64,000 nucleotides of DNA, from assembly GCA_000092065.1 (NCBI GenBank), contig CP000585.1, one strand, 5' to 3'. Position numbers and translations under genes: made by a program. Positions 16,666-46,208 of the stretch are shown here, in pieces. Under the pieces are notes generated by a model, which was given only the letters and a program-made list of their open reading frames with translations, made no database searches and had not been told where the DNA came from. This DNA comes from Ostreococcus lucimarinus (lineage: Eukaryota). Each line of letters starts with the position of its first letter. The stretch's first letter is position 1.

Positions 16666-18063
16666 TTAGAAGCCAAACGAACCGCCGAAGCCTGTCGCGC
16701 CACCCCACATGCTTTGCGGCTGGCCTTGCGCCTGTTGCCCAACACTTTCGGGCTGCGGAGCGGCGGCGGGAGAGAAAAGCGAGTAGCCCAGGCCGACACC
16801 AAACGGAGACCGACCGCCGAGAGCGTCGTACGCTCCAACGTTGCTATAGACGTCCTCGGCGAGACCTTCCATGCCCATGCCGCTCACGCCCCACGCCGCT
16901 CCAAGCTGCGAGCTTCCATCCGCTGCAGCCACGCCCCCGTTCGGCCGCGCGTTTCTATCCCAAGCGTTCGCGTGCGGCGCCGATTTCTCGGGCGTCGCGA
17001 CGCCGAAACCGCCGGGTTGAGAAAATCCGAAACCCGGCGCCACAGGTTGAGCGCGTTGATTCGCCTCCGGCGGTGGGCCCGCGGGTACGGGAGGAACGAA
17101 GCCTTCACCGACATTCGGCATACGGCTCGGCGCTTCCGCTCCCGCACCGAACGCAAACTCAGGCTTCGGGTACTTTGGGTACGTCTTCGGCGACGACGCG
17201 TTCCCAAAGCTTATCGCATTCGGCGAATCGTCCGCGGCTTGATCGCTAGCTAACATCGAACCAGTACCGAACTGAAACGTAGGTCCACCCATCACCGCCG
17301 GCTTTGCGCCGTTAGCGCCCGCTACGGGCGCCGCGGACGCACCGTTCGGTGTCGGGAAGCGTGGCGTCGGCACCGACGCCCCGCTCGTCGTGAGCGTCGG
17401 CGACTTCTCCAAAGCCGCCACCGCGGGCATCGGTGCCGTGGGTAACGGTGGATCCAAGCTCGCCTTTCTTCCGACCAACGCCGCCGCGAACGAGCCTTCA
17501 GTCGCGACGGTCACTCCAGCTTTGGCGGCGGACGCGTAGTCTATCGCCCCGCTTCGCTGCGCGATCGGCGCCGGCGTCGGCTCCTTCGCCATCGTCACCG
17601 GTCTCGCCACCGCGTTCAGCCCTCCCGCTATCGGCAGCGGCTTCGGAATGCTCACCCCACCTACTCTACCGTTCGTCGGCGATCCCGTCGGCGACCCGCT
17701 CGCCGAGGCGATTTTCGCGAACGCCGCCACCGCGGCGACGTCGTGAGAAAACCGACACTGATCCCCCCGCTTACACGTCCCTTTCGCGTGATCGAAGCAC
17801 ACGCCCGCCGCCGCTCTGTGCGGCGACCCCACGCCGCGTCCCATCACCCCCCCCGCCGCGGGATTCCCTCCCGCTTCGCCCTCGTGCGAAAACCGACAGT
17901 CGGCGCGCGCGCACGATCCCCGCGACCAATCGAAGCACGCGTCCGACCGCTCGAACGACCCGTTCCGCGCCAGTCCGCCCGTCCCGGACGTCGGCGACAT
18001 CCGTCCCATCTCCAGCGCGCGTTTCGCGCGCTCTCGCGCCGCGCGCTGCGCCTCCGGCGTCAT
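16666..18063 (-). CDS. CCCH zinc-finger / FG-repeat protein, Nup42 (NUPL2/hCG1)-like nucleoporin
   Basis: Two C-x8-C-x5-C-x3-H fingers (CFDWSRGSCARADCRFSHEG; CFDHAKGTCKRGDQCRFSHD) followed by long low-complexity region ending in FG repeats (GFGFSQPGGFG, FGGSFGF). Confidence 0.45.
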   Translation of the reverse strand: MTPEAQRAARERAKRALEMGRMSPTSGTGGLARNGSFERSDACFDWSRGSCARADCRFSHEGEAGGNPAAGGVMGRGVGSPHRAAAGVCFDHAKGTCKRGDQCRFSHDVAAVAAFAKIASASGSPTGSPTNGRVGGVSIPKPLPIAGGLNAVARPVTMAKEPTPAPIAQRSGAIDYASAAKAGVTVATEGSFAAALVGRKASLDPPLPTAPMPAVAALEKSPTLTTSGASVPTPRFPTPNGASAAPVAGANGAKPAVMGGPTFQFGTGSMLASDQAADDSPNAISFGNASSPKTYPKYPKPEFAFGAGAEAPSRMPNVGEGFVPPVPAGPPPEANQRAQPVAPGFGFSQPGGFGVATPEKSAPHANAWDRNARPNGGVAAADGSSQLGAAWGVSGMGMEGLAEDVYSNVGAYDALGGRSPFGVGLGYSLFSPAAAPQPESVGQQAQGQPQSMWGGATGFGGSFGF

Positions 18064-18452
18064 CGCGGTCGAGGTCGCCGCCCTCGCGAGATCGCGTCCG
18101 CGTTCGCCGCGCGCGTCCGTTCGCCGCGCGTCCGTTCGCCGCGTTCGCCGCGCGACGCGCCGATCGACGCGCGACGCGCGCGCGGTGCGCTCGCGGCGCG
18201 CTCGCGACGCGCGCGCGGTGCTCTCGCGACGCGGACGCGCGCGCCGCGCGCGCGGCGATGCGACGAAATCGCACCCGCGCGCGGCGCTATTCTATATACC
18301 ATTTCGAATGCGTCCTTTACGTAGTAATGTAACTGCATGGGTGTTTACTGTGATACAATACGATACACGACGTTTATCGCGTGCGATCGGTCGGTCGGTC
18401 GCGACGCGTTCAAATCTCGACATCGCGACGCGCGACGCGCGAGCGGGCGACC

Positions 18453-20222
18453 ATGCGGCGCGCGCTGGCGCGGCGCGGATACGCCGACGCGAAACCGCTG
18501 AAGCGCGGCGCGACGGGACGCGTGTACGAGGCGACGCGGCGCGACGACGGCGCGCGGTGCGCGCTGAAGATGCTGGCGACGCGCGACGCGCGCGACGAAG
18601 ACGCGACGACGGCGACGACGCGCGAGGCGGACGCGCTGCGACGGTGCGGAGGACACGCGAACGTGATCGCGCTGCGCGAGGCGTGGATCGACGACGCGCG
18701 CGGCGTCGGGTGGATCGCGATGGAGCACGGCGGAGGAGACTTGACGACGCGCGCGGCGACGGCGGCGCGCGCGGCGAATTACGCGGCGCAGATCGGGATG
18801 GCGCTGCGACACGTGCACGAGAGGTGCGGGATGGTGCACGGGGACGTGAAACCGGAGAATGTGCTCGTGGACGAGGATGGGATGGTGAGACTGGGGGATT
18901 TCGGGAGCGCGCGCGCGCGGAGCGACGAAGACGGGCGGGCGCGGGCGGGAGGCACGCCGTTGTACGCGCCGCCGGAGGTGTGCTCGGGCGAAGGGCGCGC
19001 GTGCTCGACGGCGGGAGACATGTGGGGGTTGGGGTGCGTCATGTACCAGCTCGCCGCGGGCGCGCCGCCGTTCGACGGCGGTGATAAGGAAACGCTTCGA
19101 AGGAACATCGTCGAGACGGAGCCTCCGGCGCTCGAGGGGGAGTTCGCCGGAGAGTACGACGATGTCGTGCGGGCTTTGCTCGTCAAGGACCCGGCGCGGC
19201 GTTTGACCGCGGAGCAGTTTCTGTCTTTGCCGTACATGCGGGAGCGCGTGTCGCGGATTTTAGAAACTTCGAGGAACCATCGCGAGCGAGCTTCCGGGGC
19301 GGTTGAGTTCGATGCGGATGCCGACGCCGATGCCCTGAATTCAAACGCGACGGTGGCCACATTCGGCGACGCTGACTCGCTCGTCGAGCGCTTGGCCGCG
19401 CTTGAGGCGAAGAACGAAGTGTTGACGATGAAGCTCGAGGCGTCCGAGCGGGCAAGACGCGAACTGTGCGAAAAACTCGAACGCGCCATGTTTCGCGTGA
19501 AACACGACGAAATGAAGTCCCAAGCGAGTCCTTCGACGAGTTATGCAGACGGCACGCCCACGTCAGCAGCGACGGCTGTTCCTCGATGCGCGCACACGAT
19601 GTCTTTCATGGACTCGCCGTTTATCATGTCGAGCAGCGCCGAGCGCATGATTTCCAGCCATCGTTGGTTTGAAGACTCATTCCATTTGGCCCCGATATCG
19701 CCCATCGCGGCGAACGTGAACGGTGCACGTCGAGATGCCATGCATGCTGTGACTCCGGTGCAAAGAAAACACGATTTGGTGTCCTTGTTTGAAAAGGCGG
19801 AGATTTCGCCAGCGGGACCGCTAGATTTCAAATCGTCGCCAGGCGCGAACGATTCGAGCGTCATGAGCTCGCCACCAACGTCGGCGTCCAAATCACGCGA
19901 CGAGTACATCGATAGTCTCTTGCGCCGTGCGCGTAAGTCTCGCACCGCCGAGGCGAAAACTGACGACGCATCGTCGATGTCCGACGACGCCGAAAACGAC
20001 CCGCCGTCGCCTCGATCTGAAGACGCCCTCCCCATCTTCGAGAGCGATCTCGCGACTCCACCAACGGTGTCGCGCCGTCCAAAGACTCCGATGGCGCCGC
20101 TCCGTCATCAAAACCACCGTCACGACGACGACGACGTACACGGTGACATCGCGCTCGGGCGTTCGATTAAACACGGCGTCGCTCGCGAGCGATGGAACGT
20201 TCGCCCGCGAGCGCTTTTTTGA
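18453..20222 (+). CDS. serine/threonine protein kinase
   Basis: GxGxxG-like LKRGATGRVYEA, VAIK-like CALKML, HGDVKPENVL (catalytic loop), DFG (LGDFGSARA), APE-like YAPPEV; long low-complexity C-terminal tail. Confidence 0.8.
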   Translation: MRRALARRGYADAKPLKRGATGRVYEATRRDDGARCALKMLATRDARDEDATTATTREADALRRCGGHANVIALREAWIDDARGVGWIAMEHGGGDLTTRAATAARAANYAAQIGMALRHVHERCGMVHGDVKPENVLVDEDGMVRLGDFGSARARSDEDGRARAGGTPLYAPPEVCSGEGRACSTAGDMWGLGCVMYQLAAGAPPFDGGDKETLRRNIVETEPPALEGEFAGEYDDVVRALLVKDPARRLTAEQFLSLPYMRERVSRILETSRNHRERASGAVEFDADADADALNSNATVATFGDADSLVERLAALEAKNEVLTMKLEASERARRELCEKLERAMFRVKHDEMKSQASPSTSYADGTPTSAATAVPRCAHTMSFMDSPFIMSSSAERMISSHRWFEDSFHLAPISPIAANVNGARRDAMHAVTPVQRKHDLVSLFEKAEISPAGPLDFKSSPGANDSSVMSSPPTSASKSRDEYIDSLLRRARKSRTAEAKTDDASSMSDDAENDPPSPRSEDALPIFESDLATPPTVSRRPKTPMAPLRHQNHRHDDDDVHGDIALGRSIKHGVARERWNVRPRALF

Positions 20223-21570: not shown

Positions 21571-21787
21571 TCATCGATCATCATCTAAGCACACCTAGCA
21601 GGCTTTTATCTATTTAGCGATAACTGTTACAACTGTTCCCTTCGCACGCTCGAAGATTTGAAAAAACCTAACACGCGGGTGTTTTCTTGTTGACAGTCTG
21701 TCGCCGAGCGCGGCGCGACGCCACCGCGCGACGCCGAGTCGCACGCGCGTGATTTCCGCGCTCAACACTTCTCACGACACCGTATCG

Positions 21788-23595
21788 ATGATGCACGCGC
21801 GCGCGCTGACGTTCACGCGCGCCGTCGGCGGCGATCGTCGCGCGATGCGCGCCGAGCACAAAAAACCGGCGGCGGGACGAATCCGCGCGGTGACGCGCGC
21901 GTCCGGTGAAGACGACGAGATCGCGCTGCTCGAAAAGGCGCTGAAGATGGCGAAGACGCGCAAGGCGAACGGCGAGGCGAGCGCGGCGCCGGCGGCGCCC
22001 GCGGCAGGTGGTGCGTACAGCGGCTCATCATTCAACGTCAAGACGTTCAACGCGATTTCACCGGTGGGTTTGAACAAGTTCCCGAAAGGGAAGTACGCGG
22101 TGAGTGGAGACGATAAGGAGCTGCCGGGAGACCCGATGGCGATGATGCTGCGGTCGCACAAACTGCAAGTGAGTGAGGTACCGTCGACGGTGCGAGGCAT
22201 CGTGCGCTGCGGCGCCGGTACGAATAACATTCCGGTGAAGGAGATGAGCGAGCTTGGTATTCCGGTATTTAACACCCCGGGTGCGAACGCGAACGCGGTG
22301 AAGGAGCTCGTGGTGTGCTCTTTGCTCCTGGCGAGCCGTGGGATCATCGAGGGTAACAAGCACGTGAACGATGTCATCAACGTTGAAGAAAACGGCGACT
22401 ACGCCAAGATTAGCGTGCGCATCGAAAAGGACAAGGCTATGTTCGGTGGTACTGAAATCGAGGGCAAGACGCTCGGCGTCATCGGTTTAGGCGCTATCGG
22501 TTCTCGGTACGTTTCGTTTCGCTCGCGCGTTCGCCGGTTAAATTCGCCGGTTAAATTTCGTCGCTCGACGAGCGACGAGTCTTCCTTCTCAAAGGAATGA
22601 TGATTCTCAATTAGATGTTTGATGGCGTTCAATCGACGGTCATCGTCGACGGACGTCGCTGAGACTACAAAATTGAGGCATATCCATTCTTTACCTGACC
22701 TTTGAGTCGTTTTCGAACTCTCGCGGCCGTGTGGTTGACTCTCACTCGGCTTTTGACTAACCGCGTCTCTCGTTTTTCGCTTTGTCGCAGTGTCGTAAAC
22801 GCCGCGCTTGGGCTCGGCATGAACGTCATCGGTTATGATCCGGTGCTTTCTCTCGAAGCCGCGTGGCGTCTTCCGGGGGACAAGATGTCCCGAGCGGACG
22901 ACTTGGATGAACTCTTCGCTTTGGCGGATTACATCACCATCCACGTCCCGTACATCAAGGGTGTCACCCACCACTTGATCGACGCCAAGTCTTTGGCGAA
23001 GTGCAAGCCGGGCGTGAACTTGCTCAACTTTGCTCGCGGTGAAATCATTGATGGTTCCGCTGTGCGTGCGGGCTACGACGCGGGCAAGCTCACGGGCAAG
23101 TACGTGTCTGATTTCTCGGATCCGGATTTGATGGGTCACCCGAGGCACATCGTGCTTCCGCACTTGGGCGCGTCGACAGAGGAGGCGGAAGAAAACTCCG
23201 CCGCCATGGCGGCTGATACGATGATGGATTTCCTTGAAACCGGTACGATCCGCAACTCGGTGAACTTCCCCACCACCATTTTACCGCCTCACAAGAACTC
23301 CTCCGGTGCCCGTCTCTGCATCGTCAATAAGAACGAATCCGGCGCCCTCGGTGAGATCACCACCTTCCTCGGCACGCAAAACTGCAACATTCTTCAACAG
23401 ATCAACACCTCTCGCGACAGCGTTGCGTACACGGTGATCGATTTGGAAACCTGCCCCGAAGATCCGGGTGCTTTGCAAGACTCCCTCGCCGCGGCGTGCC
23501 CGATGGTGATCTCTTCTCGCTTCATCGGCTCCGTCTTCAACGACGAGCTCGGTCAACCGGGGACGTACTTTTGGGTTCGCGAAAACGGCAACTAA
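21788..23595 (+). CDS. D-3-phosphoglycerate dehydrogenase-like (D-2-hydroxyacid dehydrogenase + C-terminal ACT domain), 2 exons (21788..22506, 22791..23595)
   Basis: NAD-binding GKTLGVIGLGAIGSR|VVNAALGLGMNVIGYDP restored across intron; catalytic R/E/H region (NFARGEIIDG, HIVLPHLGASTEE); ACT-like C-terminus ARLCIVNKNESGALGEITTFLG. Confidence 0.75.
22507..22790 (+). other. intron (284 nt) of phosphoglycerate dehydrogenase gene
   Basis: GTACGT donor at 22507, TTTTGACTAAC branch, TTGTCGCAG acceptor ending 22790; phase-2 junction (cg|t = Arg) fuses ORFs 21749..22600 and 22702..23595 into one Rossmann fold. Confidence 0.75.
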
Positions 23596-23797
23596 GCTTT
23601 CGTCCCCGCGAGTATTCCTCGCGTCGAAGATCTATCTTTCTTTAATACAGCACTTTAGCACGAGCACCAATCGCAGATGCATCCATAAGGAGTCTGACTC
23701 AGCCTTGATATTTGAGTGGTGCGACCGAGCATTACTCGTGAGAGTTTGCCCATACGACGTCAAAATATCCCGAAAAAAGGGCTCGTCCCGACACAGC

Positions 23798-26700
23798 ATG
23801 GAGCGCCGATCGACGCGCCGCGCGACGAGTAGCGCCCCCGCGCGCGCGAAGCGCACGCCCAAGATTAATTCCCAGTTTGCCCGCGATTTTGTCGTGGGAG
23901 AAGTCGCGCGACGCACGCGCGACGACGCCGATGGGAAATCCCGGGTCTCTGGCGTCGGCAAACTGTCGAGAAAAAGTGCATCGAAGAAGAAGAAGGTCGC
24001 GAACGCACTGCGTAAGCGCTTGTTACGCCAGAAAAGAGCGTCGGACAACGCAACGCGATGGCGCGTGGGATTACGGGCGCGCGCGCCGGCGATGAAGGCG
24101 ACGAGTTGTCGAAATCTGGTCAAAGCGGTCACCGCGGGGTTACTGCACGAAGCCAACGCCGTAAAGGCGACGTGGTTGAACGGCGCGGGCGTGACGATCG
24201 CTACCGAACGACGGTCGCGAATGCGTGTTCGGACGAGTGCGTGGCATTTGGAACGTCTGTCGTCGTTTATCGGGGACACGAGTTCGTCGTTTTGGGAAAA
24301 TCATCCGGATTTCGTCGTCGGCGGCGACGCGACGAGCGACGGCGACGAGCCGAAACGCGACCCGTTCGTGCAGTGGATGTGTCGAGCGAAGGAACTGGCG
24401 CCGGATGTGTTTAGTCGTGAAATGTCTTTTGCGCGGGAGTTTTCGCGTGATGGCGCTCGACCGTTTACGACGGCGATACGTATGATTGATGAGTGGACGA
24501 CGTCGAGTCTTCGCCGATTGCACGCGCACTTTCCAGGATGTGTCGATGATAGCTGGAGAACTGGCATTCCAAGAGACATACCGCTCTTGCCGGACCCCGA
24601 GAGCGTCGACAGAGAGCATGCTGCGGGAGAAAGTGAAAATGTGATCGCATCTGATGTGTCGGCAGACGCGAGTGCAAACGCTCTTCAAGGCTTCGTCGCC
24701 GCGCCGATGTCGCACGCGACGCCGGCGCCGGTCAGCGAGAGCGGCGCTCAGCTGAGTTTCGTCGCGCAGGTTGCCGCACAAAGCTTTGCGCTCGACGCAT
24801 TTCCTATTCTCCCACTCGAAATCTTACCCGTAGAACACTTCGTGCTCGGGCTCTGGAGTTCTAAGAACGCGACGACACCCGGATCACCGCCGTCAAAGCC
24901 AAATGATACGTTTTCGCTACCCTGGCTGGATTCGGCGTGGATCGACCTGATGGATTCAACCCCAAAATCTCCACGAAAGCAGCGAGCGCGAGTATGGCGA
25001 GGAAAAAATTTGGACATGATCGTGTACGGCGAAGATGAAAAGCAAACGTGGGCTTCGAAGATTGCCGCGTTTCTCAAGCGCGCTCGATCGGCACTTGGTA
25101 ATAGAGTGCTCGATCGTGGGGCTTGGGGAGGGTCCATTCTCGATAGTCTCATCGGCGCAAATCTCACACAAAACGTCAGCGATGTATTGTCGAGTACGGC
25201 GTTTATGAACCTTGCGGCGAGGTTTCCGTACAACGCATCGACGGCGGAGCAGCACGACTCTCGCGCGTACATTCACCGAATCGTCGGCGAAATGTTTGAC
25301 AGAATCCGCGAAGGCATCGAGCCGAAGGCGGTGGTTGTGCCCGATGAACTTCCAGGTAAACCCATCGATGAACTCTCATTACGCCCCAAACGCACGGTGG
25401 TGAAGAAGAAACTCAATGCGAAGAAGGCGAAGAAGGGTCCACTGCGCAAGTCGAGAAAGGTGGCGGCGGGCGTCATCGAGCAGGTCCTGGCGAGGCCAGA
25501 TCCGCCTCGAACGGAACACACGACTGATCAGGTAGACTGGTACGCCGTTTTGGACGCACCGCTCGTTGAAATCGTCAAGTGCATCAGATGCCGTGGCATG
25601 CACTGGATGCTCGCGCGACGCATCAAAGGTATTTTGAAACGAGTCATGGCGCAACGTGGATGTCTTTCGCTTGAATTTTTGCGCGACACGCCGACAAGAG
25701 ATGCCAACGAATATCTGCTCGCTCTCGACGGTATGGGCGTGAAGACGACGTCTTGTGTGCTACTTCTTGCGTTGCATCGCACAGACTTCCCCGTCGACGT
25801 TAACGTCGGGCGTATCATGGCTCGTTTGGGTTGGGTGCCACTCGAGAGCGAAACTGCTCTTGAAGAGCTCGCGCAATACGCTCCTGAACCTGCGGTGTAT
25901 ACTTTCTTGCGCGAACGTCTTAACTCTTTCGGCGTTGAGATGCTTTACGAGTTACACTACCACATGATTACACTGGGAAAAGTTTTCTGCGGTAAGCGCC
26001 TGCCAAACTGCGGTGCGTGTCCACTTCGGGATGTTTGCGAATACGCCAAGCAAGGCGGCAAGTGCGTTGATCGACCAGACGGGCACTCTGGTCTCGCGTC
26101 TCTGCAACCAGAACTTCCCACCAGAGCTCGACCATTGAATGACATCGAGGATATTGGAGGTCAAACTGTGCCGCGCACTTCGAATGTACACGAAAACGTC
26201 GCGAAAGATGGCTCGTCGTACGTGCTGAAAGCCATCATCGCCGCCGGCGTGGAATGGGACAAGAAGGGGCGACCCGAAGGTGCACTCGCGACGAATGTTT
26301 TACTCTTGAGCGCGGCAACATCGAGAGAAGATGTTCAACTTGCATACGTCCGCCTCTCTCGTGTGGTTCACCCGGACAAGAACTCTCACCCCGACGCTTC
26401 GCTGGCGTTCAATTACATCACCATGGCGCGTAAAGTTGCGCTCAACATCACAAACAACGACACGTTGGCTCAGAATATCGAAGCTGAGCTCGAAGAAATG
26501 ATCCGATTATCGGTGGAAGACGTAGAGGAAGTGCCCATGGATGAATTTACGGGCATGGAGCTCAGTGAAACAGTCATCAAAGCAAGCAAAGTTCGCGCCG
26601 AAACACTCGGATGGTCGGTGCCGACGACTTTACTCCCGCGACAAATCATTGACGAACTTGGCGGTGAGTCGAGTGCGTGTGGCTGCATCATGGTTCCCTT

Positions 26701-27469
26701 GGACTCGAACTTGAAATCACTTGACGAAATCACAGCCAAAACGGTAGACGTCGCAATTCTGGTTCCTTGTATCTCGGCGATGAAGAAAAAGTTCCCACTG
26801 CACGGCACGTACTTTCAAGTCAACGAGGTCTTCCTCGACGAAGTTTCGTCGAATGTTCCGCTCAAAGTCGAAAAGACACAACTCTCGAAATGCAAGCGCA
26901 TAAGAGTGCTCGTCGGAACGTCCATCGGAAGCATTGCTCGTGGAATGTCGCGCGTGCAAGTCACGGCGGCGTTTGCGAGTCAACGCATCTGTGTTCGAAC
27001 GTGGAACAGAACGACCAAGCGTCCCGGACCGCTACCGCGATGGCTGTGTCCGTTCTTCCCGCAACCCGTGGAGAGACCTCTCGAGCCCGAGCCATCGCCT
27101 TTGACGAAGAACGGTCGACCGATGAACCCGACGCCTTTGTCGCCGGTATCAGTGCTAACATTGGCGCAGAGTCCGCAAATCGCGACCATGGCCGCCGCAG
27201 CGCCGGTGGATTCCGTCGAGCACAGACTCCTCGAAGAATTTCAGCGAATGTTCAAGGGCAAATCAAAGCCCAAGATGCCACCTGGCCTCAAGCGCGCGTT
27301 CAACGAGTCCAACGATGGTTCATCGCGCAAACGTCGCGCACTGTTCCCAAAAGTTCTTCGGCACCAGAAATGCGGATTCTGCCGCAATTGTCTCAATCCC
27401 AGTTTTAAACAAGCGTGTCTCACGCGGCGTAATCAGATGCGTCTGAGCATGGCGTCGCCTACCGCGTGA
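23798..27469 (+). CDS. multidomain DNA glycosylase: HhH-GPD/[4Fe-4S] (EndoIII/DEMETER-like) + J-domain + C-terminal CXXC-like zinc finger
   Basis: HhH-GPD region (~25530-26040) with Fe-S ligands CGKRLPNCGACPLRDVC; J-domain (~26300-26460) LAYVRLSRVVHPDKNSHPDASLAFNYITMARKV with HPD; C-terminal KCGFCRNCLNPSFKQAC (CGxCxxC). Lower GC than neighbours. Confidence 0.65.
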   Translation: MERRSTRRATSSAPARAKRTPKINSQFARDFVVGEVARRTRDDADGKSRVSGVGKLSRKSASKKKKVANALRKRLLRQKRASDNATRWRVGLRARAPAMKATSCRNLVKAVTAGLLHEANAVKATWLNGAGVTIATERRSRMRVRTSAWHLERLSSFIGDTSSSFWENHPDFVVGGDATSDGDEPKRDPFVQWMCRAKELAPDVFSREMSFAREFSRDGARPFTTAIRMIDEWTTSSLRRLHAHFPGCVDDSWRTGIPRDIPLLPDPESVDREHAAGESENVIASDVSADASANALQGFVAAPMSHATPAPVSESGAQLSFVAQVAAQSFALDAFPILPLEILPVEHFVLGLWSSKNATTPGSPPSKPNDTFSLPWLDSAWIDLMDSTPKSPRKQRARVWRGKNLDMIVYGEDEKQTWASKIAAFLKRARSALGNRVLDRGAWGGSILDSLIGANLTQNVSDVLSSTAFMNLAARFPYNASTAEQHDSRAYIHRIVGEMFDRIREGIEPKAVVVPDELPGKPIDELSLRPKRTVVKKKLNAKKAKKGPLRKSRKVAAGVIEQVLARPDPPRTEHTTDQVDWYAVLDAPLVEIVKCIRCRGMHWMLARRIKGILKRVMAQRGCLSLEFLRDTPTRDANEYLLALDGMGVKTTSCVLLLALHRTDFPVDVNVGRIMARLGWVPLESETALEELAQYAPEPAVYTFLRERLNSFGVEMLYELHYHMITLGKVFCGKRLPNCGACPLRDVCEYAKQGGKCVDRPDGHSGLASLQPELPTRARPLNDIEDIGGQTVPRTSNVHENVAKDGSSYVLKAIIAAGVEWDKKGRPEGALATNVLLLSAATSREDVQLAYVRLSRVVHPDKNSHPDASLAFNYITMARKVALNITNNDTLAQNIEAELEEMIRLSVEDVEEVPMDEFTGMELSETVIKASKVRAETLGWSVPTTLLPRQIIDELGGESSACGCIMVPLDSNLKSLDEITAKTVDVAILVPCISAMKKKFPLHGTYFQVNEVFLDEVSSNVPLKVEKTQLSKCKRIRVLVGTSIGSIARGMSRVQVTAAFASQRICVRTWNRTTKRPGPLPRWLCPFFPQPVERPLEPEPSPLTKNGRPMNPTPLSPVSVLTLAQSPQIATMAAAAPVDSVEHRLLEEFQRMFKGKSKPKMPPGLKRAFNESNDGSSRKRRALFPKVLRHQKCGFCRNCLNPSFKQACLTRRNQMRLSMASPTA

Positions 27470-27516
27470 GAGCGCGAGAAATAATCAATGTTACATCACG
27501 ATTACAACAAACGTTT

Positions 27517-28176
27517 CTACACTCTGTACGATCTTCGCATTGCGAGCGTTTGCGCCAGCGTCTGCCGAATGTAGGGCACAACCAACGCCTCGGCGTATTC
27601 CACGACAAAGTCCGCGAGCGAAGGATGATGCAAACCGTCATTCAACGGTTTCATCTCATCAATCGCGCGCTGAATCGCTCCCGGCTCCTCAAACAGCACC
27701 TCCGCCGTCGACTCCACGACCGCTCGCAACCGTTCATCGTCCAACGACACGTCCATCGCCGCCGCCAACGCTCTCGTCGCGTCTCCCAACCCCTTCATCG
27801 CGTCGGCGTCGCCCGCCGCGAGCAAGCATCGCGGCGCGCGTTCGACGACGCGTCCCAAACACACCTCCTTCATCGGCAACGCCGCGCGCACGTTTACCAG
27901 CGCTCGCTGAATCTTCGCCGCGTCCACGCACACCAACGCCGCCTCCGGGCACTTATGAAACACCTCCCCCGCGCGAACGCCCTCTCCGCAAAATCTCTCG
28001 AGCGCCTCGCACATCGTCGCGATGGCGTGATGATCTCTAAAAATCTCCCCGACCTCGTCCTTTCGATGTCGATTCCCGAGTATGAGCAACCGCGTGACCC
28101 TGGTCTCCGAGTCCACGCCCACTTCGCGCCACGCGCGTCGCGCGTCGCTCTCCCACGCCCCGCTCATCGCGTGCAT
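27517..28176 (-). CDS. hypothetical protein (start uncertain)
   Basis: C-terminal ~220 aa of ORF 27517..29394(-) has non-repetitive composition; upstream part of that ORF is R/A-rich antisense of the PX gene and likely artefact. Confidence 0.3.
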   Translation of the reverse strand: MHAMSGAWESDARRAWREVGVDSETRVTRLLILGNRHRKDEVGEIFRDHHAIATMCEALERFCGEGVRAGEVFHKCPEAALVCVDAAKIQRALVNVRAALPMKEVCLGRVVERAPRCLLAAGDADAMKGLGDATRALAAAMDVSLDDERLRAVVESTAEVLFEEPGAIQRAIDEMKPLNDGLHHPSLADFVVEYAEALVVPYIRQTLAQTLAMRRSYRV

Positions 28177-28389
28177 CGCGAGCGAGTTCTGCGCGATGCC
28201 GTCGACGCCCCACTCGCCGTAACTCCGTCGGTCGTCGTCCCTGAAGTCGACCGCGCGCGGACGGCGCGCGCGCGTCGTCGCGCGCGCGGACCCGCGCGCG
28301 AGCGCGACGCGCGTCGCGACGCGCGAGCGCATCGCGCGCGCGCGAGTGACGAAAGTCGTTAGCGCCGCAAACGACGACGCGCGCGCGCG

Positions 28390-29793
28390 ATGGCGACGCG
28401 CGACGGCGCGAGCGCGCGCGCGACGTCGCGCGCGACGAGCGCGACGTCGCGCGCGACGACGGAGTTCTGGCTGACGATCCCGCGCGCGACGCGACGCCCC
28501 GACCCGACGCGCGCGGGCAGGGAGACGATCTTCTACGACGTCGCGTGCGCGCTCCACGGCGATCGCGGCGACGGCGCGAACGCGCGCGGACGAGACGCGG
28601 CGCGCGTCGAACGCGTCACGCGACGGCGGTACCGCGAGTTCGTGGCGCTGAAGGAAGATTTGGATGAGGAGTGCGGCCGCGGGGCGGCGCCGGAGGCGCC
28701 GCCGCGAGAACGGTTTCGTCGAGTGAACGCGGACGAGGGTAAGGTGGAGGCGCGAAGACGGCGGTTGGAGAGTTGGTTGTGGGGGGTGCTGGCGAACGAG
28801 GCGTGCGCGAAGAGCGAGGCTTTGGGACGGTTCGTACGGTTGGGGGCGTGCGAGCGGGCGCTGCGGCGCGCCGAGGCGGCGGCGGCGGCGGAGGCGGTCG
28901 AGGCGAACGCGGAGGGGGGAGAGATCGCGATGACGCCGGAGTCGACGTCGGTGCGCAAGATGGACGCAGTGACGCCGGAGATGGTGACGAATCCGAGCGC
29001 GATTCTGTCGTCGCCCGAGAGCGAGGCGAGTCCGTATGAGCCGCGGCGGCGAGCGATCGAGGAGAGCGAAGCGGCGGCAGCCACCGCCGTTGATGCGCTG
29101 AATGCGACAAATGAAGAGATGCGGTCTCTCAGGGAAGAGCTCGAGGCGACGAGGGAGTGCTTGAAGGATGCGCGCGCGACCGCGGCGGCGGCGGAGGAAA
29201 AGTTTTCCGATTTCGAAGTCACATCGCGGAAGGAAAAGAAAGTGTTGAGCAAGGAGATTCGCTCGCTGCGGCGCCAGCTCGAAGCAGCGAAGTTGGATAA
29301 AAACGAACAGGCAAACATCATATCCGCGGAAGATCGCACGGCGGTGCTGCGAGACGTCATGCACGAGGTGAGCGTGTTGCGCAATCGAGTTCAAGAGTGT
29401 ACGTATGAGAAATTACTGTCCGTGGAAGCGAGTAGCCCGCACGGACACGCAGGTGGAGATCCGAACGAGCTGCTTGCTGTGAGCGATAACCGATTGGCCG
29501 TGTTGCTCGCCGAGACGCAGATTATGATATTAGGCGGCGAGGACGCTCAGCCCTCGATTTCGGATTCCCCAGAGAGCGCCGAGGCAGAACAAGAGCTCCT
29601 GAACGCCGAGCGCGAGACCCGACAGACGTTCGCAGACTTGCTGTCGGATCTCATCAACACGCGCAAGAGTATCAATTCGCTCTTACGCAAACACTTTGCG
29701 AGAAAGAACGAACCGGCTTCGACGACAGGACTTAGCAGTCGCGTGACGAATCTCGTGGGCGCGATAGAAAAGAAACTGACCATTCCTCAATAG
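28390..29793 (+). CDS. PX-domain protein (sorting-nexin-like) with coiled-coil C-terminus
   Basis: PX-like RRRYREFVALKEDL...PPRERF...RRRRLESWLWGVL followed by long coiled-coil (EE/LR heptads). Confidence 0.55.
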   Translation: MATRDGASARATSRATSATSRATTEFWLTIPRATRRPDPTRAGRETIFYDVACALHGDRGDGANARGRDAARVERVTRRRYREFVALKEDLDEECGRGAAPEAPPRERFRRVNADEGKVEARRRRLESWLWGVLANEACAKSEALGRFVRLGACERALRRAEAAAAAEAVEANAEGGEIAMTPESTSVRKMDAVTPEMVTNPSAILSSPESEASPYEPRRRAIEESEAAAATAVDALNATNEEMRSLREELEATRECLKDARATAAAAEEKFSDFEVTSRKEKKVLSKEIRSLRRQLEAAKLDKNEQANIISAEDRTAVLRDVMHEVSVLRNRVQECTYEKLLSVEASSPHGHAGGDPNELLAVSDNRLAVLLAETQIMILGGEDAQPSISDSPESAEAEQELLNAERETRQTFADLLSDLINTRKSINSLLRKHFARKNEPASTTGLSSRVTNLVGAIEKKLTIPQ

Positions 29794-34618: not shown

Positions 34619-36427
34619 TCACTCACCACTCTCGCGCATGGCGACAAAGCGCGCTAAAAAAGACTCCAGAATGAAAACTCGATAGGCGAGCAATTCGCTA
34701 AACTCGTCGTCTTCGAGGGATCGAATTTTCTCTAACATTATCTGCGCCAAGAACGGGTGAGACTTGAAGATTTCTTCGATGGCCGATGCGCGCGCGCGCC
34801 AGAGTTCGCACACGGTGAGCGCCGAAGCGCGGACTGATTTTCTTCGTTCGGGTGGAATGAGTTCGTCCAATCCAAAGTAGCACAAGTACGCATCGGCTTG
34901 CCCAGTGAGAACAGCGATCATTTTGCGCTCGTTGGGACTTGAAATTGCCACGACTCCTTCGGTGACGACGTAAAAGTAACCAGAATCTATGACCATTCCA
35001 GGCTCGATGACGACTAGCTCGAATACACTCACGATGTGCTGACAAAGGCCGTTCGAGACGTTCCCGAATATTCGACCAACGTTCGGCGCGAGCATGTGGT
35101 GCGCCATGGACGCCATTAAATCAGTCGGCAATGACTTCATGATTTCTTCGTTTTCTCGTAGGAACGTGCGCCGTGGCTCGACTTCTGAAATGAACGACAT
35201 GATGTGCCTCCTGATGTGCGTCGGTGCGTGTTGCCGATCGAGAAATGCGTGCACACGCGTCACGCGTTCTCGAAATTTGCGCTGTCGCGACATCGTTGTT
35301 GAAAGTGCCTGAATCGATGCTCCCATGCTCCCAACGAGATAGGCGAAGAAGATCGCGCCCACGATCATCGCTACGGTCGATATGCAACGCTCGAGGTCAT
35401 TCGATCCCGCAGAGATGTCGCCAAAACCGACGGTCGTGATCGTGGCAGTGGCAAAATATAGTGCAACGATGTAGATTTCGGAGTTTGACCCATCTGCCAA
35501 GTCCGCCTGCGTGAGCCAGCTTTGATTACGGCCTTCCTGAATCGCAACGAAGATGTAGACGCACGCCACAGAATGGACCAAAAGCGCAAACACGAGCAGC
35601 GTCTGCGCGATGAATATCACCATCGGAGTCATACGAAACAGCTTCATGAACAAAATCTCCGGCGTCGTCAACGATGAACCAGTCACTCGAAGAACTCGCA
35701 AAAGACGTAGAATTCTCGTTAGGCGTTCCACCGGTGTGGATTCGCCTTTAATCGAGGCGATTATTTGCACGACAAACGGGACGCTCACTATCACGTCCGT
35801 GACAAATGAACCTTCAAGGATGTATATCTTACGGATGAGTCTGGGAGTCGTGATGAGCTTCCGTCGCCCCGTGGAGCGACACGTCAAAACTTTGGCTTCT
35901 AAGAAGTTGACCACAAACGTATCGATGAAGAAGAGCGCTCCTGCGACGAAATCGATAATCGGCGCAGCACTCAACCCTCTCCCTTTGAGCTTCATCGGGT
36001 AATCAAACGCTATGACAAACGGTTCAATGACAGACATCATCACTGTTACCGCCACGATGATCACGTTCCAAGCAAGCTGAAATCGCGACGACGGGAGAAA
36101 AAGAGATTCCCACCGTGGCCGACGATGCCGCGTTCTTCGCGCGTCCTCTTTCACGTACGCGTAGAACCTACTCGAATTCACCAACACGCCGTGTTTATAC
36201 GATTCTCGCACAAGTGTAGACTCGAGATCATCTTCTTCTATCACGAAACCTTCGATATCTTCCTCTTGCTCAAGACATTGTGACAACGGCGTGGCTCTGC
36301 GCTCTACGACTCCTGGTCCACCGTGCGCAAGCCTTATCGCAGCAGAGATGGCTGTGCCGCCCCAAGGTAAACGATCGCGCGTGCGATCAGAGGATAGCAG
36401 TGCTTGCTCGAGCGATCGGAATGACAT
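34619..36427 (-). CDS. cyclic-nucleotide-binding-domain K+ channel
   Basis: Six-TM voltage-sensor-like region with R-spaced S4 (RILRLLRVLRV), pore TTVGFGDI (K+ selectivity GFGD), C-terminal cNMP-binding fold. Lower GC. Confidence 0.7.
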   Translation of the reverse strand: MSFRSLEQALLSSDRTRDRLPWGGTAISAAIRLAHGGPGVVERRATPLSQCLEQEEDIEGFVIEEDDLESTLVRESYKHGVLVNSSRFYAYVKEDARRTRHRRPRWESLFLPSSRFQLAWNVIIVAVTVMMSVIEPFVIAFDYPMKLKGRGLSAAPIIDFVAGALFFIDTFVVNFLEAKVLTCRSTGRRKLITTPRLIRKIYILEGSFVTDVIVSVPFVVQIIASIKGESTPVERLTRILRLLRVLRVTGSSLTTPEILFMKLFRMTPMVIFIAQTLLVFALLVHSVACVYIFVAIQEGRNQSWLTQADLADGSNSEIYIVALYFATATITTVGFGDISAGSNDLERCISTVAMIVGAIFFAYLVGSMGASIQALSTTMSRQRKFRERVTRVHAFLDRQHAPTHIRRHIMSFISEVEPRRTFLRENEEIMKSLPTDLMASMAHHMLAPNVGRIFGNVSNGLCQHIVSVFELVVIEPGMVIDSGYFYVVTEGVVAISSPNERKMIAVLTGQADAYLCYFGLDELIPPERRKSVRASALTVCELWRARASAIEEIFKSHPFLAQIMLEKIRSLEDDEFSELLAYRVFILESFLARFVAMRESGE

Positions 36428-38872: not shown

Positions 38873-39502
38873 CGCCGCGCGTCGCGAAGTCGCGCGTCGG
38901 CGGGCGCGTCCACACTACGAGGATGCGCGCTATCTGTACAGGCAAACAGTGAGAGATGGTGGTCGGTCGGACGCGCGGGCTCGGCGACCGCCGCGCGCGC
39001 GCGCGCCGTCTCTTCACGACGCGCGACTTCACGCGATGGGTGCGTCCTCGACGAGCGCGCGCGAGCGACGCGAGCGCGACGACGCGGAGGCGCCGCGGCG
39101 CGCGCGCGGACGTCGCGCGCGACGGCGACGCGACGCGCGCGGACGTCGCGCGGGCGCGACGATCGCGCGTAGGGTCGCGGTGACGCGCGCGATGACGCGC
39201 GCGCGGGGCGCGACGCCGCGCGTCGGACGCGGCGCGCGCGCGATGGGTGTGGATGATATCGCGCGCGCGCGGTGCGCGCGGGTCGACGCGCGCGGGCGCG
39301 CGCGGGCGACGCAGGCGAGGATGACGGGGGCGACGCTGGGATGGGGCGAAAGCCCTAACCTCGCGATGGCGCGATGGACGCGGGGCGACCGCGGCGCGCG
39401 GACGGCGCGCGGACGCGCGGAGATGGGTGAATGCGTGAAGCATAAATATTTCGCGCGCGCGATCGATGACTGACGACGACTCGCGAACGTTTTATCGACG
39501 CA

Positions 39503-44494: not shown

Positions 44495-45097
44495 TCAGCG
44501 CGCACCGCTTCCCTCGTCCATCGACTTTGTCGACGATTGCTTTTCAAAATCCGCGAAAATATTCCTTCTAACCTCAATCTTCTTCTCCGGCTCCGCGTCG
44601 TGTCGAGGAAAATGTTCGAAAGCCGCCGCCTCCGAGTCCCCTCCCTCGAAATCCGCCGGCACCCTCGACGACGCCACGCGCACGTACCCCGTCCCTCCGC
44701 ACGCCTGACACGTGCTGATCGTCTCTTGGTGCCGTCCTCCCCGTCGCGTCGTCGACATCACCAACTTATTCCCGCCGCACTTGCCGCACCTGCGGTCGTA
44801 CACCTCCGTCGACTGTTGAATCGTGCACGTGTCCAGCTCCTCCGCCGACGGCTCGCACTTCGCGTCGCCGAACGTGCTCTTACCATCGGACGGTCGAGGC
44901 GGGGCGACGTGGTACGTTATCGGCAGACCGAGCGGTCCGTCGCGCGGCGATGACGACGATGACGACGTCGATGCCTTTGACGATGACGAGGCGACGCGCG
45001 GCGCGCGCGCGACGCGCGCGCGGCGATCGACGACGCGATGGACGCGACGATGCGACACCGCGCGCGTCGTGGACGCGGGCGCGAGTCGGGCGCGCAT
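44495..45097 (-). CDS. small DnaJ-type zinc-finger protein (two CxxCxGxG motifs), organelle-targeted
   Basis: CGKCGGNK and CQACGGTG motifs; S/R-rich presequence. Resembles plastid DnaJ-like Zn-finger assembly factors (inference). Confidence 0.4.
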   Translation of the reverse strand: MRARLAPASTTRAVSHRRVHRVVDRRARVARAPRVASSSSKASTSSSSSSPRDGPLGLPITYHVAPPRPSDGKSTFGDAKCEPSAEELDTCTIQQSTEVYDRRCGKCGGNKLVMSTTRRGGRHQETISTCQACGGTGYVRVASSRVPADFEGGDSEAAAFEHFPRHDAEPEKKIEVRRNIFADFEKQSSTKSMDEGSGAR

Positions 45098-45275
45098 GGC
45101 GAACGCGCGCGGTCGTGTGCGGGCGATCGCGGTCGTTGCGGTCGGTCGTTGCGGTCGGTCGATTTTTGGGAGAGAGCGCGCGCGGGCGAAAAACGACGCG
45201 GACGACGATCGCGCGCGGCGGAGGGACGAGTCGCGGAGACGAGCGTAAAGTACAGCGGATGTGGCAACACGCGCG

Positions 45276-46190: not shown

Positions 46191-46208
46191 TCGTCGTCGC
46201 GCGCCGAA

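What the first reader, a model, noticed from the sequence alone, without database searches (positions are those of the whole stretch)
23798..27469. DNA glycosylase (HhH-GPD + Fe-S) fused to a J-domain and a CXXC-like zinc finger
A 1,223-aa protein combines an EndoIII/DEMETER-type HhH-GPD domain with the 4Cys Fe-S motif (CGKRLPNCGACPLRDVC), a bona fide J-domain with HPD (VRLSRVVHPDKN), and a C-terminal CGFCRNC...C cluster resembling a CpG-reading CXXC finger. Recruiting Hsp70 via a J-domain to a base-excision or demethylation-type glycosylase is an unusual architecture. The gene also has markedly lower GC than its neighbours.
Basis: partly seen in the sequence, partly recalled or inferred. Interest (0 to 1): 0.6.

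Follow-up and report, generated by a model that had tools for sequence, protein, structure and literature searches.

The report
Algal DEMETER-type glycosylase with built-in J-domain
This gene encodes a green-alga version of the plant DNA-demethylating enzyme DEMETER/ROS1 that carries a built-in Hsp70-recruiting J-domain and a small CXXC-type zinc knuckle; both are real, but the layout is shared across green algae and is already described in the literature.

Summary
An uninterrupted + strand ORF (ATG 23798 to stop 27469, 1,223 aa) encodes a DEMETER/ROS1-family DNA glycosylase. It matches solved ROS1 at E=7e-81 and keeps the catalytic Lys and Asp and the 4-Cys Fe-S loop.

The J-domain is genuine:
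- It scores 30.8 bits against Pfam's 27.8 cutoff when scanned as a domain.
- A 14-sequence profile retrieves almost only J-domain structures (best E=2e-9).
- The AlphaFold2 model matches J-domains.
- HPD is invariant.

It lies inside the protein, in the variable linker between the Fe-S loop and domain B, so it is not a gene-fusion artefact.

The C-terminal motif CGFCRNCLNPSFKQAC is a conserved four-Cys module. It aligns to the second zinc unit of canonical CXXC domains (hhalign P about 5e-6; 0 of 300 shuffles reach the score). It fails Pfam zf-CXXC thresholds and lacks the other four Cys.

The architecture is not unusual for its clade. 19 of the 150 best family representatives carry the J-domain at the same position, including Micromonas, Auxenochlorella, Ostreobium and Bryopsis. 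Zhang et al. 2019 (PMC6717269), citing Iyer et al. 2011, already describe DnaJ and CXXC domains in chlorophyte DME homologues.

The low-GC claim is weak. The function of the J-domain is untested.

The parts
23798..27469 (+). Complete single-exon coding sequence of the DME/ROS1-family glycosylase (1,223 aa plus stop)
   Evidence: ORF listing and translation. An identical product is in public collections (P0001 cluster, 202 members). Synteny with an orthologue of about 60% identity is conserved.
23798..24172 (+). N-terminal basic region (aa 1-125; 28% K+R, pI 12). It is poorly conserved. By analogy it matches the Lys-rich DNA-sliding N-terminus of ROS1.
   Evidence: Composition, low conservation, and the ROS1 N-terminal basic domain described in PMC6801703. 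The function is inferred.
24173..24997 (+). N-terminal region conserved only among Ostreococcus-like orthologues (aa 126-400); no recognised domain
   Evidence: No Pfam hit. 42% identity among close orthologues and none to Micromonas-like proteins.
25022..25237 (+). DME 'domain A', the first segment of the split glycosylase domain (aa 409-480, includes LTQNVSD)
   Evidence: Aligned to ROS1. 88% and 67% identity across algal homologues. Invariant columns.
25238..25522 (+). IDR1, the variable basic insert that splits the glycosylase domain (aa 481-575)
   Evidence: Poorly aligned to ROS1. 37% and 26% identity. IDRs in the ROS1 family are described in PMC7617993.
25523..26047 (+). HhH-GPD glycosylase core with the [4Fe-4S] cluster loop (aa 576-750). 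Catalytic Lys649 is at nt 25742-25744, Asp667 at nt 25796-25798, and the Fe-S loop Cys731/738/741/747 at nt 25988-26038.
   Evidence: phmmer hits to ROS1 and Endonuclease III structures. Motif positions. The two ROS1 PDB constructs differ (D vs N) exactly at the column aligned to Asp667. 93% and 74% identity.
26213..26452 (+). J-domain module (aa 806-885). It has an extra conserved N-terminal helix (aa 806-822), helix I (829-834), helix II (843-857), HPD (858-860, nt 26369-26377) and helix III (867-881).
   Evidence: Pfam DnaJ at 30.8 bits against the 27.8 cutoff, with 14 of 14 homologues hitting. PDB profile search best E=2e-9, nearly all hits J-domains. AF2 model pLDDT 76.5. Foldseek top hits are J-domains. 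pLDDT 82-90 in the context model, flanked by linkers below 50.
26603..27040 (+). DME domain B: the pre-RRM block (aa 936-985) plus the RRM_DME domain (aa 986-1081)
   Evidence: Pfam RRM_DME at 102.8 bits against the 34.6 cutoff. Aligned to the ROS1 CTD at E=1.7e-18.
27353..27442 (+). C-terminal single CXXC-type zinc unit (aa 1186-1215; Cys1192, 1195, 1198 and 1207; motif KCGFCRNCLNPSFKQAC)
   Evidence: Invariant C-G-x-C-x-x-C-L-x-P...C across homologues. hhalign to canonical CXXC gives prob 83-86% and P about 5e-6, mapping onto unit 2. 0 of 300 shuffles reach the score. Pfam zf-CXXC hits are sub-threshold only.

Best explanation
The gene encodes the chlorophyte form of the DEMETER/ROS1 (DML) family of bifunctional DNA glycosylase/lyases, the enzymes that start active DNA demethylation in plants by excising 5-methylcytosine.

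Shown here:
- It has the full DML catalytic core: domain A, a split HhH-GPD domain with the catalytic Lys and Asp, a four-Cys Fe-S loop, and domain B with RRM_DME.
- It has two accessory modules typical of green-algal members.
- One module is a real J-domain with an intact HPD loop. It is inserted as a separately folded unit on flexible linkers in the variable region (IDR2) between the Fe-S loop and domain B.
- The other module is a C-terminal four-Cys knuckle homologous to one zinc unit of a CXXC domain. It takes the place of the permuted CXXC that land plants carry in front of RRM_DME.

Inferred:
- The enzyme excises 5mC (and probably T opposite G) from the CG-methylated genome of this picoalga.
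- The basic N-terminus and the CXXC unit help it bind or scan CpG DNA.
- The tethered J-domain recruits nuclear Hsp70 and triggers its ATPase next to the glycosylase.

The most likely use of that Hsp70, at about 35-40%, is to strip the enzyme off its tightly bound nicked product so that it can turn over or hand over to downstream repair. ROS1 is a slow-turnover, product-inhibited enzyme. An alternative is that Hsp70 loosens local chromatin or partner complexes. That would parallel the J-proteins DNAJ1/2, which plant SUVH1/3 bring to methylated DNA to counteract silencing.
For: Family identity:
- ROS1 structure match at E=7e-81 in two blocks, with query aa 409-749 on the glycosylase domain and aa 973-1081 on the CTD.
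- RRM_DME at 102.8 bits.
- GVKT, FPVD and the C-x6-C-x2-C-x5-C loop are present and invariant in the family alignment.

J-domain:
- Searches support the assignment.
- HPD(K/R) is kept in every full-length algal homologue and in all 19 J-positive representatives.
- The module is as conserved as RRM_DME (74% vs 76% and 39% vs 50%) and more conserved than its linkers.
- It forms a confident island between low-confidence linkers.

Position:
- It is always between the Fe-S loop and RRM_DME.
- It is absent from the plant protein in the interdomain alignment.

CXXC unit.

Literature:
- Chlorophyte DME homologues carry classical CXXC copies and Hsp70-interacting DnaJ domains (PMC6717269).
- DML proteins are known in Ostreococcus (PMC6801703).
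- DNMT5-type methyltransferases occur in Mamiellophyceae (PMC9861306).
- ROS1 binds its product tightly and turns over slowly (PMC6801703).
- SUVH1/3 recruit DNAJ1/2 to methylated DNA (PMC10396365).
Against: - No enzymatic or binding activity is shown for this protein or for any algal DME homologue that I found.
- J-domain helix IV is only weakly predicted (pLDDT 52-64). The whole-protein Pfam score is just under threshold (26.1 vs 27.8).
- The CXXC unit fails Pfam and PDB sequence thresholds. A RecQ zinc knuckle scores as well as the CXXC structures do.
- Nothing here says what Hsp70 would act on. The product-release idea is an analogy, not a result.
- The 824-aa AF2 model was poor (mean pLDDT 54.9). 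It gives no information on contacts between the J-domain and the core.
Confidence: 0.8

Rival explanations
1. The J-like segment is a degenerate or purely structural 'J-like' fold that no longer talks to Hsp70 and acts only as a spacer or as a contact surface for the glycosylase core.
For: The whole-protein Pfam score is below the gathering cutoff (26.1 vs 27.8). Helix IV is poorly predicted. An extra conserved N-terminal helix with an invariant W..G(R/K)P turn is attached, which could be a non-canonical interface.
Against: HPD is invariant in all homologues from Mamiellophyceae to Trebouxiophyceae and Ulvophyceae. The helix II Arg and the helix III Phe are conserved, and they align with the corresponding DnaJ positions. 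From established knowledge, known inactive J-like domains typically lose HPD.
Confidence: 0.1
2. The J-domain serves Fe-S cluster maturation or repair of the adjacent [4Fe-4S] loop, in the way HscB/Jac1-type J-proteins work with Hsp70, rather than acting on DNA-bound enzyme.
For: The module is inserted about 60 aa after the Fe-S loop. Mutating the Fe-S cysteines of DME abolishes its glycosylase activity (PMC6801703).
Against: The best matches are generic cytosolic or nuclear J-domains (DNAJC27, DNAJB12, DNAJC8, DnaJ), with no HscB-type hit. Land-plant DME/ROS1 proteins mature the same cluster without a J-domain.
Confidence: 0.08
3. The C-terminal Cys motif is a generic zinc knuckle, for example of the RecQ type, that gives structure or non-specific DNA binding. 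It is not a CpG-reading CXXC relative.
For: No significant Pfam or PDB sequence hit to CXXC. RecQ's CGNCDVCLNP knuckle is the best PDB hit at E=0.12. Parts of the CXXC PDB alignments fall on expression-tag residues. There are only four Cys.
Against: Profile-profile alignment to verified CXXC domains gives P about 5e-6. It maps the motif onto unit 2, with K-Q on the K-Q/H-Q loop, and 0 of 300 column shuffles reach the score. zf-CXXC is the Pfam family hit by the most members, 5 of 12. The literature calls the chlorophyte modules CXXC.
Confidence: 0.25
4. The protein is mainly a repair glycosylase, for T:G or oxidised pyrimidines, and not a 5mC demethylase.
For: DML enzymes also excise T mispaired with G (PMC6801703). 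No algal member has been assayed.
Against: The DML-specific features are fully conserved: domain A with LTQNVSD, and RRM_DME, which in ROS1 helps form the 5mC pocket (PMC7617993). DNMT5-type cytosine methyltransferases are reported in Mamiellophyceae (PMC9861306).
Confidence: 0.15
5. The fusion is an artefact: two genes run together, or an unspliced intron is read through.
For: None found. The genome does contain spliceosomal introns.
Against: The J module lies between two blocks homologous to a single ROS1 chain. The same order is found in 19 independent representative clusters and in curated NCBI and UniProt entries. The segment is conserved at the protein level.
Confidence: 0.01

Closest known systems
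Chlorophyte DEMETER-like glycosylases with DnaJ and CXXC modules (Iyer, Abhiman & Aravind 2011, as cited in Zhang et al. 2019, PMC6717269 Fig. 5). Examples: Micromonas commoda XP_002500051.1 'DNA glycosylase', Auxenochlorella protothecoides XP_011399155.1 'Transcriptional activator DEMETER', Ostreobium quekettii CAD7701147.1 (UniProt name 'J domain-containing protein').
   Same: Same catalytic core. The J-domain is at the same position, between the Fe-S loop and RRM_DME. HPD is intact. Many also share the C-terminal CGxCxxCLxPxxKxxC unit. The window gene is an orthologue or member of this group.
   Different: The differences are in accessory N-terminal domains. Micromonas-type proteins add Tudor, zf-CW, HARE-HTH and a Pfam mono-CXXC, and place the CGxCxxC unit in the N-terminal half. 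The window protein has a basic tail and an unassigned region conserved only in close orthologues instead.
Arabidopsis ROS1 / DME (DML family; solved structures 7yho, 7yhp, 7yhq)
   Same: Domain A, split HhH-GPD, catalytic Lys and Asp, Fe-S loop, domain B with RRM_DME, two variable linkers and a basic N-terminus (PMC6801703, PMC7617993).
   Different: Land-plant proteins have a permuted CXXC directly before RRM_DME and no J-domain. The window protein has no Perm-CXXC hit, lacks that Cys-rich block, and has a J-domain in IDR2 and a C-terminal CXXC unit.
Arabidopsis SUVH1/SUVH3-DNAJ1/DNAJ2 methyl-DNA reader complex
   Same: A J-domain protein is brought to methylated DNA to counteract silencing (PMC10396365). 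This is a functional analogy for coupling a J-domain to the 5mC pathway.
   Different: In Arabidopsis the J-protein is a separate polypeptide recruited by an SRA-domain reader, and no base excision is involved. Homology between the two J-domains was not tested.
Canonical zf-CXXC domains (KMT2A/B, TET1/3, CXXC4/5; PDB 2jyi, 4pzi, 6asd, 5vc9, 4hp1)
   Same: C-G-x-C-x-x-C ... (K/H)-Q-x-C spacing and residues of the second zinc unit. The short loop resembles the TET/CXXC4 type, which lacks KFGG.
   Different: Only one of the two zinc units is present (four Cys, not eight). Hits are below Pfam thresholds. CpG binding is untested.

Membership tests
DEMETER/ROS1 (DML) 5mC DNA glycosylase/lyase family | HhH-GPD glycosylase domain with catalytic Lys and Asp | tested here: met
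   ROS1 E=7e-81 and EndoIII structures E=1e-22. GVKT (K649) and FPVD (D667) are present and invariant.
DEMETER/ROS1 (DML) 5mC DNA glycosylase/lyase family | Four-Cys [4Fe-4S] cluster loop after the HhH-GPD domain | tested here: met
   C731-x6-C738-x2-C741-x5-C747. These Cys columns are invariant in the 13-sequence alignment. The Pfam EndIII_4Fe-2S hit is weak (14 bits).
DEMETER/ROS1 (DML) 5mC DNA glycosylase/lyase family | Discontinuous glycosylase domain: conserved domain A separated from the HhH core by a variable insert | tested here: met
   The ROS1 alignment spans aa 409-749 with a poorly aligned middle. Segment identities are 88% / 37% / 93% for domain A, IDR1 and the core.
DEMETER/ROS1 (DML) 5mC DNA glycosylase/lyase family | Family-specific C-terminal domain (domain B / RRM_DME) | tested here: met
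   PF15628 at 102.8 bits against the 34.6 cutoff. ROS1 CTD block E=1.7e-18.
DEMETER/ROS1 (DML) 5mC DNA glycosylase/lyase family | Permuted CXXC before RRM_DME. This defines streptophyte members only, not the family as a whole (PMC6717269). | tested here: not met
   No PF15629 hit, whereas the plant protein P0021 has one. The Cys-rich block is absent in the interdomain alignment.
DEMETER/ROS1 (DML) 5mC DNA glycosylase/lyase family | Excision of 5-methylcytosine with AP-lyase activity | not testable with these tools
   Needs a biochemical assay.
J-domain (DnaJ/Hsp40) family, PF00226 | Significant match to the J-domain profile | tested here: met
   30.8 bits (110-aa segment) and 29.0 bits (220-aa segment) against the 27.8 cutoff. 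26.1 bits in the whole-protein scan. 14 of 14 homologues hit, best E=3.4e-9. PDB profile search best E=2e-9.
J-domain (DnaJ/Hsp40) family, PF00226 | Invariant His-Pro-Asp loop between helices II and III | tested here: met
   HPD at aa 858-860, in the loop between predicted helices 843-857 and 867-881. Invariant in the alignment and in distant representatives.
J-domain (DnaJ/Hsp40) family, PF00226 | Four-helix J fold | tested here: inconclusive
   Helices I-III superimpose on solved J-domains at 0.7-1.4 A over 47-51 columns. The putative helix IV region has pLDDT 52-64. The Pfam match covers profile positions 5-52 of 63.
J-domain (DnaJ/Hsp40) family, PF00226 | Stimulation of Hsp70 ATPase | not testable with these tools
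   Needs a biochemical assay.
zf-CXXC (PF02008) CpG-binding zinc finger | Eight Cys forming two interleaved zinc clusters | tested here: not met
   Only four Cys in the last 100 aa. This is conserved as four in distant homologues.
zf-CXXC (PF02008) CpG-binding zinc finger | Match to the Pfam profile above threshold | tested here: not met
   Best E=0.057, 5 of 12 members, all sub-threshold. No hit for the window sequence itself.
zf-CXXC (PF02008) CpG-binding zinc finger | Homology of the unit: CGxCxxC ... (K/H)Q-x-C | tested here: met
   hhalign prob 86% and 83%, P=4.8e-6 and 8.5e-6, best to unit 2. 0 of 300 shuffles reach the score.
zf-CXXC (PF02008) CpG-binding zinc finger | Selective binding of unmethylated CpG DNA | not testable with these tools
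   Needs a binding assay.

The most novel reading that the evidence does not exclude
The cis-tethered J-domain may make green-algal DEMETER an Hsp70-powered demethylase. In this reading Hsp70 is loaded next to the enzyme to pull it off its nicked product, or off nucleosomal DNA, which converts a near single-turnover glycosylase into a recycling one. Land plants, which lost the J insert, would then supply the equivalent chaperone step in trans, through the SUVH-DNAJ1/2 complex or the alpha-crystallin proteins of the IDM complex. The domain has been catalogued, but I found no test or explicit proposal of this mechanism in the papers I searched.
Probability: 0.2. Interest if true: 0.6.

Novelty: already known. 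Interest (0 to 1): 0.25.

Why it matters
DML glycosylases are the only known enzymes that remove 5-methylcytosine directly, and their slow, product-inhibited kinetics are a long-noted oddity. A chaperone-recruiting domain built into the algal enzymes hints that Hsp70 takes part in demethylation. That would be easy to test in Ostreococcus-type algae, which have dense CG methylation and tractable genetics. As a discovery it adds little, because the domain combination is published and is annotated in public protein databases. The new contributions here are:
- the exact placement of the J module, in IDR2 on flexible linkers;
- the finding that the C-terminal element is a single CXXC unit;
- the finding that the J-in-IDR2 placement spans Mamiellophyceae, Trebouxiophyceae and Ulvophyceae, with the C-terminal CXXC unit confirmed by name only in Auxenochlorella and otherwise seen in unnamed clusters.

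Tried and rejected
1. Whole-protein Pfam scan. DnaJ came out just under threshold. I resolved this by domain-level scans and a family profile.

2. Direct sequence searches for CXXC. Pfam on the C-terminus and PDB profile searches gave nothing significant. Some apparent CXXC hits partly aligned to ENLYFQG expression tags, so I discounted them. Only profile-profile comparison with shuffle controls gave usable evidence.

3. Pfam mono-CXXC (PF15626) and Perm-CXXC (PF15629). Neither hits the window protein. In Micromonas, mono-CXXC hits a different Cys cluster from the CGxCxxC motif.

4. AF2 of aa 400-1223. Mean pLDDT was 54.9, and even conserved catalytic segments were poorly modelled. I did not use it for fold search and took from it only the contrast between the J module and its linkers.

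5. Gene-fusion or read-through-intron artefact. Rejected.

6. Foreign origin or special status inferred from low GC. Rejected. Synteny is also conserved.

7. Literature. The search for DEMETER + DnaJ + Ostreococcus found nothing, and the Pfam-name search found only land-plant gene-family surveys. The decisive paper surfaced only with DEMETER + DnaJ.

8. First hhalign control script. It timed out and was rerun.

Not attempted: the origin of the J-domain, meaning which J-protein subfamily it is closest to and whether it is related to plant DNAJ1/2.

Full report
**1. Observation**

The + strand carries an open frame from 23705 to 27469. Its first ATG is at 23798, giving 1,223 aa. All quoted motifs are there:
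- the Fe-S loop CGKRLPNCGACPLRDVC at aa 731-747;
- HPD at aa 858-860, within VRLSRVVHPDKN;
- CGFCRNC at aa 1192-1198, with a fourth Cys at aa 1207.

The frame is uninterrupted. This genome does splice, because the neighbouring 2-hydroxyacid dehydrogenase gene has a GT..AG intron at 22507-22790 that an orthologous locus lacks.

**2. What the protein is**

- phmmer against all PDB chains gives Arabidopsis ROS1 at E=7e-81 in two blocks. Query aa 409-749 aligns to the glycosylase domain and aa 973-1081 to the C-terminal domain.
- Pfam gives RRM_DME at 102.8 bits against a cutoff of 34.6.
- The catalytic Lys (GVKT, K649) and Asp (FPVD, D667) are present.
- The two deposited ROS1 constructs differ (D vs N) exactly at the column aligned to D667. 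I read the N form as the catalytically dead trapping mutant; this is an inference.
- The Fe-S cysteines and the domain A motif LTQNVSD are invariant in a 13-sequence alignment that includes two land-plant DME proteins.

So this is a full DML core, not merely an EndoIII-like enzyme.

**3. The J-domain**

In the whole-protein Pfam scan DnaJ scored 26.1 bits, just under the 27.8 gathering score. Several results settle it:
- Scanned as a domain, the segment scores 29.0 bits (220 aa) and 30.8 bits (110 aa).
- All 14 algal homologues in alignment A1 hit DnaJ, best E=3.4e-9.
- A profile of A1 searched against the PDB returns 59 sequences, nearly all of them J-domains. The best are DNAJC27 at E=2e-9 and DNAJB12 at E=4.8e-9.
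- An AlphaFold2 model of aa 800-909 (pLDDT 76.5) has helices at 806-822, 829-834, 843-857 and 867-881, with HPD in the loop between the last two.
- Foldseek's top 36 PDB hits are essentially all J-domains. Helix II-HPD-helix III superimposes at about 1 A. The E-values are modest (7e-3 at best) because the unit is small.
- HPD, the helix II Arg and the helix III Phe are invariant or nearly so.

Helix IV is only weakly predicted. A conserved extra helix with an invariant W..G(R/K)P turn precedes helix I.

**4. Where the J-domain sits**

An alignment from the Fe-S loop to RRM_DME shows the J block in the variable linker (IDR2 of the DML literature). It lies between the Fe-S loop and the conserved 'DIED ... 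R(L/I)R.E...(Y/W).LP' block of domain B. The land-plant sequence has nothing at that position.

Because DME-homologous sequence flanks it on both sides in a single ORF, a two-gene artefact is excluded.

In a context model of aa 400-1223 (poor overall, mean pLDDT 54.9), the J module is a confident island (pLDDT 82-90) between linkers below 50. That fits a tethered, independently folded module.

Segment identities are 74% (J) against 76% (RRM_DME) and 59-64% (linkers) among Ostreococcus-like orthologues. Against Micromonas-like proteins they are 39%, 50% and about 20%. The module is under constraint.

**5. The C-terminal Cys motif**

The motif (K/R)CGxCxxCLxPxx(K/R)(K/Q)xC is invariant in its Cys, Gly, Leu and Pro positions across close and distant homologues. 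It is preceded by a conserved R.R..(F/Y)P stretch and always has exactly four Cys.

Direct searches are not significant:
- Pfam zf-CXXC gives a best E of 0.057, in 5 of 12 members.
- PDB CXXC chains come out at E=0.19-5.
- A RecQ zinc knuckle scores as well, and some CXXC alignments run into tag residues.

I therefore took authentic CXXC sequences from the PDB (KMT2A, KMT2B, TET1, TET3 x2, CXXC4, CXXC5) and ran profile-profile comparison:
- Probability is 86% with P=4.8e-6, and 83% with P=8.5e-6 for the broader alignment.
- The motif maps onto the second zinc unit, with its K-Q on the K-Q/H-Q loop.
- Column-shuffle controls gave scores averaging about 10, with a maximum of 19, against 29 for the real alignment. 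0 of 300 shuffles reached it.

The element is best described as a single CXXC-type unit with one zinc. It is not a canonical eight-Cys CXXC domain. The window protein has no Perm-CXXC and no Pfam mono-CXXC hit.

**6. Distribution**

The word-indexed search found 23 clusters. Fourteen of them carry precomputed DnaJ, thirteen of those together with RRM_DME. One corresponds to Micromonas commoda XP_002500051.1 'DNA glycosylase'.

An exhaustive phmmer of the core against 1.84 billion representatives found 3,042 relatives, 350 of them at E<=1e-30.

Of the best 150:
- 19 carry the J-domain. In every one that spans both landmarks it lies between the Fe-S loop and RRM_DME (three are fragments lacking one landmark), and all keep HPD.
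- 7 of these also carry the C-terminal CXXC unit after RRM_DME.

Named members include Auxenochlorella protothecoides 'Transcriptional activator DEMETER', [Myrmecia] bisecta, Bryopsis sp., and Ostreobium quekettii, whose protein UniProt already calls 'J domain-containing protein'. The J-in-IDR2 layout is therefore chlorophyte-wide, and the C-terminal CXXC unit is frequent but not universal; it is named only in Auxenochlorella, and the other carriers are unnamed clusters. The remaining 131 representatives lack the J-domain. Their lengths and the named plant examples suggest most are land-plant proteins, but I did not check their taxonomy.

Gene order (DHDPS, 2-hydroxyacid dehydrogenase, DME-J, small ORF, PX-domain gene) is conserved with an orthologue of about 60% identity.

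**7. Prior knowledge**

- Reviews state that DML proteins occur in Ostreococcus (PMC6801703, PMC9861306).
- Zhang et al. 2019 (PMC6717269, section on evolutionary history and Fig. 5), citing Iyer, Abhiman & Aravind 2011, say that chlorophyte and stramenopile DME homologues have classical CXXC copies at distinct positions. [quoted passage not shown] They add that the permuted CXXC arose only in streptophytes.

I found no experimental work on what the J-domain does.

**8. GC**

The gene has GC 0.561 and GC3 0.616, against 0.609 for the window. It is lower than the two genes downstream. It is similar to the upstream gene and to six other long ORFs. One of those (34619-36427) has an even lower GC3 of 0.596. 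With conserved synteny, nothing suggests a special origin.

**9. Mechanism**

Shown: an intact DML catalytic core, a J-domain with the residues needed for Hsp70 contact, a CXXC-type unit, and a very basic N-terminus (28% K+R).

Inferred:
- The enzyme excises 5mC, and probably T:G. DNMT5-type methyltransferases are reported in Mamiellophyceae, so CG-methylated substrate should exist.
- The basic tail and the CXXC unit contribute DNA or CpG binding. ROS1's Lys-rich N-terminus mediates sliding.
- The J-domain loads Hsp70 locally.

[quoted passage not shown] The most economical role for Hsp70 is therefore release or recycling of the product-bound enzyme, or hand-over to downstream repair. I put this at about 35-40%.

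Alternatives are chromatin or complex remodelling, analogous to the DNAJ1/2 proteins that SUVH1/3 recruit to methylated DNA; Fe-S cluster maturation; or a purely structural role.

**10. Verdict**

The finding is a regular member of an already described chlorophyte DME subfamily. Interest is modest. It rests on the untested idea that Hsp70 takes part in glycosylase-based demethylation.

Noticed in passing
window 22507-22790 (+ strand), inside the gene spanning about 21749-23595: The upstream 2-hydroxyacid (phosphoglycerate-type) dehydrogenase gene is split by a 284-nt GT..AG intron (GTACGT donor, TCGCAG acceptor). Joining the exons restores ...GAIGSR|VVNAALGLG... The orthologue in L002 has no intron there.
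   Followed up: yes
P0010, P0011, P0012 (homologues at about 60% identity), just after the motif FPLHGTYFQVN in RRM_DME: In these clusters the called protein diverges into unrelated sequence (VRFSR...) right after GTYFQVN. This looks like an unrecognised intron (GT donor) or a frameshift in that lineage. The window gene reads straight through.
   Followed up: no
window 26213-26290 (aa 806-831): A conserved extra helix followed by an invariant W-x-x-x-G-(R/K)-P turn precedes J-domain helix I in all algal homologues, and is predicted with pLDDT about 90. It is not part of a canonical J-domain. The GRP core faintly recalls an AT-hook, but it may simply pack on the J fold.
   Followed up: partly
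P0019 / P0062 (Micromonas commoda XP_002500051.1), aa ~674 / ~825: The same CGxCxxCLxPxxKKxC unit sits in the N-terminal half instead of at the C-terminus, next to Tudor, HARE-HTH and a separate Pfam mono-CXXC hit. The unit therefore behaves as a mobile module within the family.
   Followed up: partly
window 24173-24997 (aa 126-400): An N-terminal region of about 275 aa is conserved (42% identity) only among Ostreococcus-like orthologues. It has no Pfam or PDB match and no counterpart in Micromonas-like proteins. Its function is unknown.
   Followed up: no
window-wide, e.g. 18000-19000, 28000-29000, 38502-39443, 44950-46527: GC content swings between about 0.52 and 0.78 over a few kb. The GC-rich stretches generate many long overlapping ORFs on both strands that are probably not genes (for example 27466-28362 on the + strand opposite 27517-29394 on the - strand).
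   Followed up: no
cluster of P0084: Two short fragments of this algal DME-like cluster are deposited in NCBI as 'hypothetical protein, partial [Pseudomonas aeruginosa]' (WP_162978850.1, WP_162949632.1), on contigs of 310-524 bp. This is most likely contamination in bacterial assemblies.
   Followed up: no
window 27517-28332 (- strand): A 271-aa ORF with high GC3 (0.80) converges on the DME-J gene, ending 48 nt from its stop codon. It is called as a gene in public assemblies but has no Pfam hit. A similar small ORF occupies the same position in L002.
   Followed up: no
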